Positions 32,101 through 35,100 of a stretch of 64,000 nucleotides of DNA are shown here, in pieces. The position numbers are program-made. The DNA lies in the NCBI RefSeq assembly GCF_002854065.1, contig NZ_CP024147.1, one strand, 5' to 3'. This DNA is from Escherichia coli. GTDB taxonomy: Bacteria; Pseudomonadota; Gammaproteobacteria; Enterobacterales; Enterobacteriaceae. The first letter of the stretch is position 1, and every line of letters starts with the position of its first letter.

Positions 32101-35100
32101 TGATGTTATCGAAGAAAATGGTCAGGTTTTTGCCGAACTGGAGTCCCGTAATTGTGGCAAACCGCTGCATAGTGCGTTCAATGATGAAATCCCGGCGATT
32201 GTCGATGTTTTTCGCTTTTTCGCGGGTGCGGCGCGCTGTCTGAATGGTCTGGCGGCAGGTGAATATCTTGAAGGTCATACTTCGATGATCCGTCGCGATC
32301 CGTTGGGGGTCGTGGCTTCTATCGCACCGTGGAATTATCCGCTGATGATGGCAGCGTGGAAACTGGCTCCGGCGCTGGCGGCAGGGAACTGCGTAGTGCT
32401 TAAACCATCAGAAATTACCCCGCTGACCGCGTTGAAGTTGGCAGAGCTGGCGAAAGATATCTTCCCGGCAGGCGTGATTAACGTACTGTTTGGCAGAGGC
32501 AAAACGGTGGGCGATCCGCTGACCGGACATCCTAAAGTGCGGATGGTGTCGCTGACGGGCTCTATCGCCACCGGCGAGCACATCATCAGCCATACCGCGC
32601 CGTCCATTAAGCGTACTCATATGGAACTTGGTGGCAAAGCGCCAGTGATTGTTTTTGATGATGCGGATATTGAAGCAGTGGTCGAAGGTGTACGTACATT
32701 TGGCTATTACAATGCTGGACAGGATTGTACTGCGGCTTGTCGGATCTACGCGCAAAAAGGCATTTACGATACGCTGGTGGAAAAACTGGGTGCTGCGGTG
32801 GCAACGTTAAAATCTGGTGCGCCGGATGACGAGTCTACGGAGCTTGGACCTTTAAGCTCGCTGGCGCATCTCGAACGCGTCAGCAAGGCAGTAGAAGAGG
32901 CGAAAGCGACAGGGCACATCAAAGTGATCACTGGCGGTGAAAAGCGCAAGGGTAATGGCTATTACTATGCGCCGACGCTGCTGGCTGGCGCATTACAGGA
33001 CGATGCCATCGTGCAAAAAGAGGTATTTGGTCCAGTAGTGAGTGTTACGCTCTTCGACAACGAAGAACAGGTGGTGAACTGGGCGAATGACAGCCAGTAC
33101 GGACTTGCATCTTCGGTATGGACGAAAGATGTGGGCAGGGCGCATCGCGTCAGTGCACGGCTGCAATATGGTTGTACCTGGGTCAATACCCATTTCATGC
33201 TGGTAAGTGAAATGCCGCACGGTGGGCAGAAACTTTCTGGTTACGGCAAGGATATGTCACTTTATGGGCTGGAGGATTACACCGTCGTCCGCCACGTCAT
33301 GGTTAAACATTAAGTTAGATGTTAGTGGCTGTTATAGGACGGCCACTATCGTTTTAGGTTCTGAGTTTAATGGCGGTTAAGTATTAGAATGATTACATTA
33401 ATAACTAGCGTAAAAATTAGGCTAAATGTTTGATGGCGATTTTTCATCCTGTCACAGTTGATTAGCATAAGGCTTTAGAGTATCGTTATTAAACTAATAA
33501 TTTATAAGTAGAAGTATTAACAATGAAAGTTCAATTGTACAAATTCACGGAAGATAAAAATAAAACCCTTACCTTCAGATGGACGAAAAAACACTTTGAG
33601 TTTTGTATGGATAATAAAATCTTTTTAAATCATAAGGGGAAGAAGTCGTATAAAGAAAGGAATTTATTTCTTTTCTCAAAAGGTGACAAGATAACAATTG
33701 AAGATAATGTTATTGCTGAAGAATATTCAACAATGCCTGTAAAAAATTTCTCCAGTGTCGGCGCTTTTTCATTTCCGACCTGTCATTTTTCAGGGAATAT
33801 ACGTATAGGTCGATTTTGTAGTATTGCATCAAATGTAAAAATAATGGGTGGAAATCATCCTTTGAATCGTTTTACTACTCACATGATGACTTATAACGGT
33901 GAATTTGATAAGTTTGCTATGAGTGAGTTTGAACGTAGCTGGACATTGAAACCATTCATTACCAAACCTGAAAATCCGATTATAGGAAATGATGTCTGGA
34001 TAGGAAATGATGTTGTATTGAAAGGTGGCATCGCAATAGGTGATGGTGCTGTTATTGCTGCCAATTCCGTTGTTACCAAAGATGTGCCCCCATATGCCAT
34101 AGTTGCAGGAGTTCCTGCAAAAATAATCAGATTTAGGTTTGATTCAAATGTTATTGATGAACTGTTGAGAATAAAATGGTGGAATTATAACTACTCAGAT
34201 CTTCCGGATAATAACAAGTGTGATGATATAAATTATTTTGTTGAAGAGATGAATCGATTGATATCAAATGGAAATATTCAAGAGAGGGACTATAAAAAAT
34301 TCAATCTTTCTGAGGTATTCAGAGGCCTATAATTATCTGTTTTGCATGATAAATGGGCAAGATAACCAGGGCGGGGTTTGCAATTTCAATGGGGCAGCGT
34401 CATCAAGGAGGTTGCAAACATCCTGCCATGCATATACTTTACGCCATCTTTTTATATTTGCGTTATTCCTTGAAAGTATAAAGCATTTATAGACTCCCGC
34501 GCGTATAAAGTATTCATGATAGAAAAATGTGAAAACAAGATTCCCTTTGAGTCAGTAAGCTGTTTGTATAGACGACAGTAGGGGGATGTTTTCTACTCAT
34601 TTCAATGTAGATGCCAGCAAAAAGAAGTAAATATTAAGGATAATGTTGTAAACCTGGAGAGTATGAGAAGATCTTGCGTACTGTCAGAGAGTTGATTTCT
34701 CTGACAGTACGTGCTGCGTGCAAAATCACTACATCAAATAAACCAGCCAAATCTCATAGAGATAAGAGTAAACAAACCAACAGCAGCAAAGACATTTATC
34801 AGTACTACAGTTCTACTGGAAACATTCATTTTTGCCACCTTTTATCATTGCCCCTATGTGTATAGTACGGGTTAAGAAAATCCGCAATAATACTCATTCT
34901 GAAGATGGATAAGGGCAAGTTGCTGTTTGATGTTTTTTTCTCAAACCGGTTAAAAAACTTGATGCACGTCAAAAAATGACGCATATTTGCGCGCGTTTTA
35001 TTCATCTGGCTGGACGCCCGTACATGTCTCTCTATCAACATATGCTTGTTTTTTATGCGGTTATGGCAGCAATCTCATTTCTTATCACCTGGTTTCTTTC

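What the first reader, a model, noticed from the sequence alone, without database searches (positions are those of the whole stretch)
33314..34733. AT-rich insert between patD and yncL carrying a Vat/CatB-like xenobiotic acetyltransferase
Seen in sequence: about 1.4 kb of markedly AT-rich DNA holds a 269-aa ORF (33523..34332) whose C-terminal two-thirds carry the hexapeptide-repeat core IGRFCSI...[53 protein letters not shown]...WWN. From memory this closely matches streptogramin A acetyltransferases (Vat) and CatB-type chloramphenicol acetyltransferases (XAT family). The first 60-90 residues are lysine-rich and not obviously XAT-like. I do not recall a gene at this position in K-12 (patD is followed by yncL and ortT), so it looks like a strain-specific acquisition, possibly a cryptic antibiotic-modifying enzyme.
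Basis: partly seen in the sequence, partly recalled or inferred. Interest (0 to 1): 0.65.

Follow-up and report, generated by a model that had tools for sequence, protein, structure and literature searches.

The report
Accessory acetyltransferase gene beside patD
About one fifth of E. coli genomes carry a 1.3-kb AT-rich insert with one intact acetyltransferase gene; the enzyme resembles antibiotic-modifying Vat/CatB enzymes but groups with relatives that acetylate cell-surface sugars and often ride on prophages, so it is an already-annotated, functionally untested accessory gene and probably not a hidden resistance gene.

Summary
Relative to K-12, window 33314-34637 is a 1324-bp insert (34% GC) directly after the patD stop. 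It carries an intact 269-aa ORF (33523-34332, +). It sits at this same locus in 1158 of 5426 complete E. coli genomes, in two diverged alleles under purifying selection. RefSeq already calls it 'CatB-related O-acetyltransferase'.

The protein has the left-handed beta-helix fold, and Vat/CatB are its nearest solved structures. His112 and Trp159 occupy the catalytic positions, but these residues are common to all such O-acetyltransferases.

It scores below half of every curated cutoff: Vat 125 of 300, CatB 106 of 350, ApmA 83 of 550. In a tree it separates from true Vat and CatB with 100% bootstrap. It falls in a 'long-form' clade with the Campylobacter jejuni LOS-locus gene at the position of Orf11, a proven sialate O-acetyltransferase.

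Other clade members lie in an LPS-core cluster, in a teichoic-acid cluster, or next to prophage tail-fibre genes. None of those examined lies in an integron or on a plasmid.

My best reading (about 0.5) is a soluble surface-glycan O-acetyltransferase of phage or polysaccharide-locus origin, acceptor unknown. A cryptic antibiotic acetyltransferase remains possible (about 0.17). Interest is modest.

The parts
33314..34637 (.). 1324-bp AT-rich insert relative to K-12, ATCC 11775 and O157:H7; one coding gene
   Evidence: Junction alignment. GC is 0.341 against 0.487 for the window. Present in 1158 of 5426 E. coli genomes, at one locus only. Its 3' 305 bp occur nowhere else in E. coli. It has no DNA match in the phage collection beyond 93 bp of the hexapeptide core.
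33304..33313 (+). Left copy of an imperfect 10-bp direct repeat, TAAACATTAA (end of patD including the stop codon)
   Evidence: Read directly from the junctions. The empty sites keep a single copy.
34628..34637 (+). Right copy of the 10-bp direct repeat, TAAATATTAA, at the right end of the insert
   Evidence: It fits either a target duplication or repeat-mediated deletion; the direction is not resolved.
33323..33358 (+). Terminator-like hairpin plus T-run immediately after the patD stop, inside the insert
   Evidence: Terminator scan: 11-pair stem, 5 G-C pairs, tail TCGTTTTAGG; inverted repeat I18. Function is inferred only.
33442..33522 (+). 81-bp upstream region that travels with the gene; contains a sigma-70-like site at 33474-33501
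   Evidence: DNA homology to the Citrobacter loci starts at 33442 and ends at 34319 (76% identity). The promoter-like match scores 9 of 12, which is no better than shuffled expectation, so it is only a candidate.
33523..34332 (+). ORF for a 269-aa soluble LbH O-acetyltransferase (RefSeq WP_000867989.1, 'CatB-related O-acetyltransferase')
   Evidence: Pfam Hexapep match. AF2 model has pLDDT 90.5. No transmembrane segment. Between the two E. coli alleles, 12 synonymous and 6 non-synonymous codon differences.
33523..33702 (+). N-terminal extension (residues 1-60, 22% Lys; motif FRW-K-H-E-FC--N-IFL) absent from Vat and CatB
   Evidence: Conserved across the Enterobacterales clade. Not matched by any Pfam or NCBIfam model. 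Not ApmA-like in fold (TM 0.36-0.43).
33856..33858 (+). Codon for His112, the predicted general base
   Evidence: Aligns with Vat(D) His82 in GANH/GGNH. Conserved in at least 90% of the 45-sequence family alignment.
33997..33999 (+). Codon for Trp159 (invariant DVW), the predicted partner Trp from the adjacent subunit
   Evidence: Invariant in the family alignment. Aligns with Vat(D) NDVWIG. The role is taken from LbH acetyltransferase structures (PMC3046976).
34180..34329 (+). C-terminal extension (residues about 220-269; WWxY...DLPDN...DDI...) shared with the long-form clade
   Evidence: W219 and W220 are invariant. The alignment with C. lari and C. jejuni LOS-locus proteins runs through this region. 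Vat(D) aligns here only with gaps.
34333..34637 (.). 305 bp of non-coding insert DNA downstream of the ORF, origin unknown
   Evidence: Not shared with the Citrobacter or Cedecea loci. 94% identical between the E. coli alleles. No Rfam hit.
34645..34657 (.). Cluster of 7 substitutions in 13 bp, linked to the insert-bearing haplotype
   Evidence: Both insert alleles read GTTGTAAACCTGG where all three empty sites read ATTGCAGATCGTA.
34677..34711 (.). Perfect 14-bp-arm hairpin in the spacer shared with K-12; likely the bidirectional patD/yncL terminator (context, not part of the insert)
   Evidence: Inverted repeat I6, 100% complementary. Present in K-12 as well.

Best explanation
The insert is an old, horizontally acquired single-gene cassette. 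Its product is a soluble, presumably trimeric, acetyl-CoA-dependent left-handed beta-helix O-acetyltransferase.

It belongs to a distinct 'long-form' branch (about 255-280 aa) of the XAT-like class, not to the Vat, CatB or ApmA resistance families. Members of this branch whose function or context is informative act on cell-surface glycans, and the branch is repeatedly carried as a prophage moron next to tail-fibre genes.

The most likely mechanism follows the family chemistry. His112, on the loop protruding from the beta-helix, deprotonates a sugar hydroxyl. That oxygen attacks the thioester of acetyl-CoA bound in the inter-subunit tunnel, with Trp159 of the neighbouring subunit lining the site. 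The N- and C-terminal extensions probably shape the acceptor site.

The enzyme has no membrane segment, so the acceptor would be a cytoplasmic-face intermediate: lipid A-core, an Und-PP-linked repeat unit, a nucleotide sugar, or an ABC-exported polymer. The expected consequence is altered surface antigenicity or phage receptor recognition.

What is shown: the fold class, the catalytic residues, the clade membership, the contexts of relatives, the population distribution and the purifying selection. What is inferred: the glycan acceptor, the trimer, expression, and any phenotype. The acceptor in E. coli is unknown.
For: Clade and similarity:
- An NJ tree with 200 bootstraps puts the query with the Enterobacterales, Campylobacter LOS-locus and Gram-positive long forms. 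VatD, VatE, a Vibrio Vat, CatB2 and CatB3 are excluded at 100%.
- BLASTP scores for the query run in this order: Pectobacterium waa-cluster protein 262 bits at 51% identity, C. lari LOS protein 167 bits, C. jejuni Orf11-position protein 143 bits, Vat(D) 112 bits, CatB3 83 bits.

Contexts of relatives:
- C. jejuni P0127 follows cgtA, cst, neuB, neuC and neuA and precedes the GT2 and GT9 genes. This is the slot of orf11 in class A/B LOS loci, a proven sialate O-acetyltransferase (PMC8319020; PMC3513307; PMC2174954).
- C. lari has the same arrangement.
- Pectobacterium brasiliense carries its homologue inside the LPS-core waa cluster.
- Enterococcus thailandicus carries its homologue inside a teichoic-acid or wall-polysaccharide cluster.
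- The Providencia homologue is in a prophage, beside a GT52 glycosyltransferase and between the tail fibre and integrase genes.
- The Kluyvera homologue directly follows prophage tail-fibre and tail-fibre-assembly genes.
- In IMG/VR locus L023 the homologue lies between the tail fibre and tail sheath genes on the opposite strand. This is the P2 'moron position 2' described in PMC3573123.
- In L024 and L026 the homologue is adjacent to tail-fibre genes.

Other points:
- The glycan-locus members give the same sub-threshold Vat/CatB/phn profile as the query. NCBI gives the C. jejuni protein the same 'CatB-related' or 'antibiotic acetyltransferase' label. The Vat/CatB resemblance is therefore non-discriminating.
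- The gene is about 33% GC in hosts of about 50% GC, as in Citrobacter and Kluyvera.
- It is intact in nearly all carriers, and the alleles differ by 12 synonymous and 6 non-synonymous codons.
- His and Trp occupy the conserved catalytic positions.
Against: - In E. coli the gene is an orphan among core metabolic genes (ydcV, patD, yncL, ortT). There is no glycosyltransferase, neu gene or phage gene nearby. The same is true in Citrobacter, Cedecea, Rahnella and Apirhabdus. Guilt by association therefore comes only from more distant relatives at 36-55% identity.
- The one biochemically characterised relative is only 40% identical, and its N-terminal 65 residues do not align. I equated P0127 with Orf11 from locus position; I did not compare it with the published sequence.
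- The carriers span many O-serotypes (O104, O111 and others), so a common acceptor is not obvious.
- By Foldseek the nearest solved structures are antibiotic XATs, not NeuO or OatWY.
- Expression was not examined. AT-rich DNA in E. coli is often silenced by H-NS (general knowledge).
Confidence: 0.5

Rival explanations
1. The gene is a cryptic xenobiotic or antibiotic O-acetyltransferase that inactivates streptogramin A, chloramphenicol, an aminocyclitol or a related natural product, as Vat, CatB and ApmA do.
For: - The best PDB sequence matches are Vat(D) at 7e-30, Vat(A), CatB and ApmA.
- The best fold matches are Vat, CatB and PaXAT, with TM 0.55-0.63 on the target.
- Its match to the Vat model spans nearly that model's full length (positions 23-189 of 201).
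- His112, Trp159 and the C-terminal IKWWN motif are shared with Vat(D).
- ApmA shows that a long N-terminal extension on this scaffold can go with antibiotic modification (PMC7885111 appeared in search; I did not read it).
Against: - It scores well below half of every curated cutoff: 125 of 300, 106 of 350 and 83 of 550.
- It is excluded from the Vat and CatB clades at 100% bootstrap.
- The same sub-threshold profile is given by proteins in LOS, LPS-core and prophage contexts.
- No close copy is on a true plasmid. The only close hit is a 4.9-Mb record mislabelled as a plasmid. No family member I examined sits in an integron or transposon, whereas catB2 and catB3 sit in cassette arrays.
- The N-terminal domain is not ApmA-like.
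- E. coli is intrinsically insensitive to streptogramins (general knowledge), so selection for a Vat function there is doubtful.
Confidence: 0.17
2. The gene encodes an acetyltransferase for an endogenous or environmental small metabolite other than an antibiotic, for example a detoxifying sugar or thiogalactoside-type acetylation like LacA and Maa, or a phosphonate- or amine-related substrate.
For: - The top NCBIfam hit is TIGR03308, the phosphonate-metabolism hexapeptide transferase family (131 bits).
- The gene is a stand-alone chromosomal gene in E. coli, Citrobacter, Rahnella, Cedecea and Apirhabdus.
- In E. coli it lies beside polyamine-catabolism genes.
Against: - The TIGR03308 score is below its cutoff of 202, and no phn genes are nearby.
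- The patD neighbourhood is not conserved in any other species.
- The LacA, Maa and WbbJ models match only the short hexapeptide core.
Confidence: 0.1
3. The gene is a functionless relic: a stranded phage moron, silenced and drifting, kept only by linkage.
For: - No partner genes accompany it.
- The DNA is AT-rich and likely to be bound by H-NS (inference).
- Occasional IS1 disruptions occur (H58, H70).
- No terminal repeats or mobility genes are left.
Against: - The ORF is intact in nearly all of about 1150 carriers.
- The coding region is 97.8% identical between alleles, against 88-94% for the flanking insert DNA, with synonymous changes outnumbering non-synonymous ones 12 to 6.
- Catalytic residues are conserved.
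Confidence: 0.1

Closest known systems
Campylobacter jejuni Orf11 sialate O-acetyltransferase (SOAT; Houliston et al. 2006, as cited in PMC8319020 and PMC3513307)
   Same: Both sit in the same long-form clade, apart from Vat and CatB. Identity is 40% over residues 66-252, and over 41-267 for the C. lari orthologue, including the C-terminal WWxY...D extension and the HP-x-[DN]-R-[FI]-[ST]-T loop after the catalytic His. Size is similar (276 vs 269 aa). Both are soluble, and NCBI gives both the same 'CatB-related' label.
   Different: The E. coli gene has no neuBCA, cst or LOS genes around it. The N-terminal 40-65 residues do not align. Identity is too low to transfer acceptor specificity. I equated P0127 with Orf11 from locus position, not from the published sequence.
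Vat streptogramin A O-acetyltransferases (Vat(D), Vat(A); PDB 1khr, 4hur)
   Same: They share the LbH fold with the extended loop, the catalytic His (His82 vs His112), the NDVWIG Trp and the IKWWN C-terminal helix. Identity is 37% over about 200 aa.
   Different: The NCBIfam Vat score is 125 against a cutoff of 300. The query falls in a separate clade. It has about 55 extra N-terminal and about 40 extra C-terminal residues. It is chromosomal and an orphan, not plasmid-borne.
Type B chloramphenicol acetyltransferases and PaXAT (CatB2/3/8; PDB 1xat, 6pua, 8j40)
   Same: Same fold class and same catalytic His/Trp geometry. RefSeq names the query after this family.
   Different: The score is 106 against a cutoff of 350, and only 83 bits to CatB3. 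The query falls in a separate clade. catB genes sit in integron cassette arrays; this gene does not.
ApmA aminocyclitol acetyltransferase (PDB 7jm0)
   Same: An XAT-like core with an extra N-terminal domain, and a similar overall length (274 vs 269 aa).
   Different: The score is 83 against a cutoff of 550. The match covers only the core (query residues 70-230). The fold match is weaker than to Vat or CatB (TM 0.36-0.43), so the N-terminal domains are not alike.
NeuO, the prophage CUS-3 polysialic acid O-acetyltransferase of E. coli K1 (PDB 3jqy)
   Same: A functional analogue: a soluble LbH O-acetyltransferase carried by a prophage that modifies a surface glycan, with the same His/Trp mechanism (PMC3046976).
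   Different: The sequence match covers only the hexapeptide core (residues 150-204, E = 2e-10). NeuO is not among the top fold matches. The query has no heptad-repeat phase-variation tract.
neaT-type AT-rich acyltransferase morons in P2-like prophages (PMC3573123)
   Same: The genetic logic is the same: an unameliorated, roughly 30% GC acyltransferase gene in the slot between tail fibre and tail sheath, oriented against the tail genes. Homologue L023 shows exactly this arrangement.
   Different: NeaT is a membrane Acyl_transf_3 (PF01757) protein, unrelated in fold. The E. coli cassette here is no longer inside a prophage.

Membership tests
Hexapeptide-repeat (LbH) acetyl-CoA O-acetyltransferases, XAT-like class | Hexapeptide repeats forming a left-handed beta-helix | tested here: met
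   Pfam Hexapep PF00132, E = 1.8e-9. AF2 model pLDDT 90.5 with short strands repeating every 6 residues over 64-204. Foldseek probability 1.00 to Vat, CatB and PaXAT.
Hexapeptide-repeat (LbH) acetyl-CoA O-acetyltransferases, XAT-like class | Catalytic His on a loop leaving the helix, plus a conserved Trp supplied by the adjacent subunit | tested here: met
   His112 aligns with Vat(D) His82, and Trp159 with the Vat(D) NDVWIG Trp. H112 is conserved in at least 90% of the family and W159 is invariant. The feature definition comes from PMC3046976.
Vat streptogramin A O-acetyltransferase (NCBIfam NF000311 and Vat(A-I) exception models) | Score at or above the curated cutoff | tested here: not met
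   125.3 bits against 300. The individual Vat models give 91-112 bits against cutoffs of 400-475.
Vat streptogramin A O-acetyltransferase (NCBIfam NF000311 and Vat(A-I) exception models) | Phylogenetic placement within the Vat clade | tested here: not met
   VatD, VatE and the Vibrio Vat group apart from the query's clade; the split has 100% bootstrap.
Vat streptogramin A O-acetyltransferase (NCBIfam NF000311 and Vat(A-I) exception models) | Acetylation of streptogramin A, or a resistance phenotype | not testable with these tools
   Needs an enzyme assay or MIC measurement.
Type B chloramphenicol O-acetyltransferase (NCBIfam NF000490) | Score at or above the curated cutoff, and membership of the CatB clade | tested here: not met
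   106.3 bits against 350. CatB2 and CatB3 fall outside the query's clade.
Type B chloramphenicol O-acetyltransferase (NCBIfam NF000490) | Mobile resistance context (integron cassette or plasmid). This is typical of the family, not strictly defining. | tested here: not met
   The gene is chromosomal at one locus in 1158 genomes. The only close 'plasmid' hit is a 4.9-Mb mislabelled chromosome. catB2 and catB3 sit between aadA1 or blaOXA-1 and qacEdelta1.
ApmA aminocyclitol acetyltransferase (NF000084) | Score at or above the cutoff, and the ApmA-type N-terminal domain | tested here: not met
   83.1 bits against 550, core only. Foldseek TM is 0.36-0.43, lower than to Vat or CatB.
Orf11-type sialate O-acetyltransferase (C. 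jejuni SOAT) | Significant homology and a shared clade with the LOS-locus enzyme | tested here: met
   40% identity with E = 5e-46 to C. jejuni P0127 and 2e-55 to C. lari P0109. Same side of the 100%-supported split. However, the Campylobacter sequences form their own subclade, and P0127 is equated with Orf11 by position only.
Orf11-type sialate O-acetyltransferase (C. jejuni SOAT) | Genetic linkage to sialic-acid synthesis and transfer genes (neuBCA, cst) | tested here: not met
   The neighbours in E. coli are ydcV, patD, yncL, ortT, ydcY, ydcZ, mnaT and curA.
Orf11-type sialate O-acetyltransferase (C. jejuni SOAT) | 9-O-acetylation of terminal sialic acid | not testable with these tools
   Needs an enzyme assay.
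Prophage lysogenic-conversion (moron) gene | Location inside a prophage at a moron slot near the tail-fibre genes | tested here: not met
   Not met for the E. coli copy: there are no phage genes in or around the insert. Met for relatives in Providencia, Kluyvera, L023, L024 and L026.
Transposon, IS or MITE-type mobile element | Terminal inverted repeats, a transposase, or multiple copies | tested here: not met
   No terminal inverted repeats. Single copy per genome. There is only a 10-bp imperfect direct repeat at the junctions.

The most novel reading that the evidence does not exclude
One fifth of E. coli, including many B1 and STEC lineages and Shigella flexneri, carry a domesticated phage-type O-acetyltransferase. 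It would add an unrecognised, serotype-independent O-acetyl group to a conserved envelope glycan such as LPS core or ECA, changing phage adsorption or immune recognition. That would be a hidden layer of surface variation missed by O and K typing.
Probability: 0.25. Interest if true: 0.55.

Novelty: new member of a known kind. Interest (0 to 1): 0.3.

Why it matters
If the glycan reading is right, a common but unstudied accessory gene would modify the E. coli surface independently of the O-antigen cluster. That bears on phage host range, phage therapy, serology and vaccine epitopes.

If the rival reading is right, 21% of E. coli would carry a chromosomal proto-resistance acetyltransferase.

There is also a practical point. 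The RefSeq label 'CatB-related O-acetyltransferase', and the older 'antibiotic acetyltransferase', is also applied to a gene at the position of a proven sugar O-acetyltransferase and to a gene in the kps capsule region of ST131. It should not be read as evidence of antibiotic resistance in resistome surveys.

Tried and rejected
1. ApmA-like N-terminal domain. Rejected: the ApmA model matches only the core, and the fold match is weaker than to Vat or CatB.
2. Functional link to patD or polyamine genes. Rejected: no other species has the homologue beside patD.
3. Phosphonate-pathway enzyme (top NCBIfam hit TIGR03308). The score is below the cutoff, there are no phn genes nearby, and the LOS and LPS-locus relatives give the same hit.
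4. Transposon or MITE. No terminal inverted repeats and no extra copies.
5. A small hydrophobic ORF at 33367-33468 (-), which resembles YncL. A 13-bp indel in allele 2 destroys it, so it is not a gene.
6. A non-coding RNA in the insert. No Rfam hit at E <= 1.
7. A defence-system component. No PADLOC hit.
8. Phage or plasmid origin by DNA similarity. Nothing beyond the 93-bp hexapeptide core in phages, and no true plasmid copy.
9. A species-wide scan (genome contigs) to find Escherichia outgroups.
10. Literature search by RefSeq accession found no paper. Houliston et al. 2006 is not held.
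Full report
**1. Observation**

GC drops from 0.52-0.56 in patD to 0.27-0.38 across about 33300-34900. The ORF is 33.3% GC and the insert 34.1%, against 48.7% for the whole window.

In K-12 XL1-Blue the patD-yncL spacer is 96 bp. Base-by-base comparison shows the two sequences are identical up to the patD stop (33313) and again from 34638 onward. The extra DNA is therefore 33314-34637, 1324 bp. It is bracketed by an imperfect 10-bp direct repeat: TAAACATTAA at 33304-33313 and TAAATATTAA at 34628-34637.

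The empty sites of K-12 (phylogroup A), ATCC 11775 (B2) and O157:H7 (E) are identical to one another. Both insert-bearing alleles share the same junctions. They also share a cluster of 7 substitutions at 34645-34657. The filled and empty states therefore look like two old haplotypes that differ by a single event. Its direction, gain or repeat-mediated loss, I could not determine.

**2. Distribution**

The insert is in 1158 of 5426 complete E. coli genomes, always at this locus. There are 945 copies at 99% identity or more, 207 at 95-99%, and 6 at 90-95%. A few copies are interrupted by IS1 (H58, H70). The remaining genomes have the empty site. The same protein cluster also occurs in Shigella flexneri.

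No true plasmid carries it. The single close 'plasmid' hit is a 4.9-Mb record. The phage collection has no DNA match beyond 93 bp of the hexapeptide core. RefSeq already annotates the gene as 'CatB-related O-acetyltransferase' (WP_000867989.1; allele 2 is WP_000867994.1).

The two alleles differ at 2.2% of ORF positions, with 12 synonymous and 6 non-synonymous codon changes. The flanking insert DNA differs by 6-12%. The coding sequence is thus under purifying selection, and the locus is old within E. coli rather than specific to one strain.

**3. Anatomy of the insert**

There are no terminal inverted repeats, no second copy and no Rfam family. A terminator-like hairpin (33323-33348, followed by a T-run) sits directly after the patD stop. 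A sigma-70-like match lies at 33474-33501, although such matches are no more frequent here than in shuffled sequence.

DNA similarity to the Citrobacter homologue covers only 33442-34319, that is the ORF plus 81 bp upstream. The remaining 128 bp upstream and 305 bp downstream are of unknown origin. A small hydrophobic ORF on the minus strand (33367-33468) is destroyed by a 13-bp indel in allele 2 and is not a gene.

**4. The protein**

Pfam finds only hexapeptide repeats. The best PDB sequence matches are Vat(D) (7e-30, residues 61-230), Vat(A), CatB and ApmA.

An AlphaFold model built on a 45-sequence family alignment is confident, with pLDDT 90.5. Its best Foldseek matches are Vat, CatB and PaXAT (TM 0.55-0.63 on the target). 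ApmA matches less well. His112 aligns with the Vat(D) catalytic His82, and Trp159 with the NDVWIG tryptophan. H112 is conserved in at least 90% of the family and W159 is invariant. The protein has no hydrophobic segment.

But this His/Trp pair is common to all structurally characterised LbH O-acetyltransferases. That group includes maltose and galactoside acetyltransferases and the sialate O-acetyltransferases NeuO and OatWY (PMC3046976). The pair therefore does not indicate a xenobiotic substrate.

**5. Membership tests**

Against NCBI's curated models the protein scores as follows:
- TIGR03308 (phosphonate-pathway hexapeptide transferase): 131 bits, cutoff 202
- Vat: 125 bits, cutoff 300
- CatB: 106 bits, cutoff 350
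- ApmA: 83 bits, cutoff 550

It fails all four. I fetched bona fide VatD, VatE, a Vibrio Vat, CatB2 and CatB3 from annotated plasmids. I then built a neighbour-joining tree with 200 bootstraps. The query, its Enterobacterales relatives, the Campylobacter LOS-locus proteins and several Gram-positive long forms fall on one side of a split with 100% support. Vat and CatB fall on the other.

Within its side, the query groups first with Citrobacter (90%) and Cedecea (100%). Next come the Providencia and Kluyvera prophage copies and Apirhabdus (100%). Then come the Pectobacterium waa-cluster copy, Dickeya and Rahnella (96%).

Pairwise BLASTP scores follow the same order: 262 bits (Pectobacterium), 167 (C. 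lari), 143 (C. jejuni), 112 (Vat(D)) and 83 (CatB3). The family is about 255-280 aa long. It has conserved N- and C-terminal extensions that Vat and CatB lack.

**6. What relatives do**

The C. jejuni protein P0127 (1560 member sequences) lies after cgtA, cst, neuB, neuC and neuA, and before the GT2 and GT9 genes of the LOS locus. C. lari has the same arrangement. In class A/B LOS loci this is the place of orf11, which was shown biochemically to be a sialate 9-O-acetyltransferase (Houliston et al. 2006, as cited in PMC8319020, PMC3513307 and PMC2174954). I equate P0127 with Orf11 from its position in the locus, not from a comparison with the published sequence.

Other contexts of relatives:
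- Inside the LPS-core waa cluster of Pectobacterium brasiliense.
- Inside a teichoic-acid or wall-polysaccharide cluster of Enterococcus thailandicus.
- In a Providencia rettgeri prophage, beside a GT52 glycosyltransferase and between tail-fibre and integrase genes.
- Directly after tail-fibre and tail-fibre-assembly genes in a Kluyvera prophage.
- Between tail fibre and tail sheath, on the opposite strand, in a P2-like IMG/VR contig. This is the 'moron position 2' described for P2-like phages (PMC3573123).
- Next to tail-fibre genes in two further viral contigs.
- Beside a primase and terminase-type mobile element in Dickeya.

The orphan copies are those in E. coli, Citrobacter, Cedecea, Rahnella and Apirhabdus. 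No family member I examined was in an integron or on a resistance plasmid.

The glycan-locus members give the same sub-threshold Vat/CatB profile as the query. NCBI labels the C. jejuni protein 'CatB-related' or 'antibiotic acetyltransferase' as well. The same label is used for a gene in the kps capsule region of ST131 (bioRxiv 10.64898/2025.12.15.689991). The label and the Vat/CatB resemblance therefore carry no information about the substrate.

**7. Mechanism and verdict**

The most likely reading (about 0.5) is a soluble acetyl-CoA-dependent O-acetyltransferase acting on a cytoplasmic-face intermediate of a surface glycan. It would have been inherited from the phage-moron and polysaccharide-locus gene pool and is now fixed as a single-gene cassette in some E. 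coli lineages. His112 would act as general base, and Trp159 of the neighbouring subunit would complete the site. The acceptor is unknown, and the orphan context in E. coli is the main weakness of this reading.

It rests only on fold-level similarity that is shared with sugar-specific relatives. Another small-molecule substrate (about 0.1) and a silent relic (about 0.1, argued against by purifying selection) complete the list.

The gene is already annotated. It belongs to a known enzyme class and to a subfamily that has one characterised member. It is a new, uncharacterised member of a known kind, and its interest is modest.

Noticed in passing
window 34645-34657: A dense cluster of 7 substitutions in 13 bp, just right of the insert junction. 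Both insert-bearing alleles share it, and it is absent from all three empty-site genomes examined (K-12, ATCC 11775, O157:H7), which are identical to one another here. This suggests the filled and empty states are two old haplotypes differing by a single event.
   Followed up: partly
window 33323-33358: The insert brings its own terminator-like hairpin directly after the patD stop. In K-12, patD is followed instead by the perfect 14-bp-arm hairpin at the position equivalent to 34677-34711, shared with convergent yncL.
   Followed up: partly
window 33367-33468 (-): A 33-aa hydrophobic ORF (MLINCDRMKNRHQTFSLIFTLVINVIILILNRH) that resembles small membrane proteins such as YncL. A 13-bp indel in the second E. 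coli allele breaks the frame, so it is probably not a gene.
   Followed up: yes
window 44001-46000 and 60001-64000: Two further markedly AT-rich blocks (GC 0.36 and 0.35-0.38) elsewhere in the window; possibly other acquired islands.
   Followed up: no
E. coli genomes NZ_AP021893.1 (H58) and NZ_CM176588.1 (H70): IS1A insertions interrupt or partly delete the acetyltransferase cassette in a few strains.
   Followed up: no
L008 (Cedecea) 4154-6810 and L014 (Rahnella) 4032-6783: In two different genera the orphan homologue lies about 150-180 bp downstream of, and co-oriented with, a methyl-accepting chemotaxis protein gene. This may be coincidence or a shared insertion preference.
   Followed up: no
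L011-L013 (Providencia rettgeri prophage), about 4785-6804: The homologue is divergently paired with a GT52-family glycosyltransferase between tail-fibre and integrase genes. DarT/NADAR or retron-like (RVT_1 plus ATPase) defence genes lie nearby. It looks like a lysogenic-conversion and defence island.
   Followed up: partly
NCBI protein names: NCBI applies the names 'CatB-related O-acetyltransferase' and 'antibiotic acetyltransferase' to the C. jejuni LOS-locus protein at the position of the sialate O-acetyltransferase Orf11. A bioRxiv preprint uses the 'catB-related O-acetyltransferase' label for a gene in the kps capsule region of E. coli ST131. The names over-suggest antibiotic resistance.
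   Followed up: partly
window 35963-36715 (-): The mechanical ORF for mnaT runs to 250 aa, whereas RefSeq annotates 172 aa (519 bp). The upstream extension is probably just an open frame, not a longer protein.
   Followed up: no
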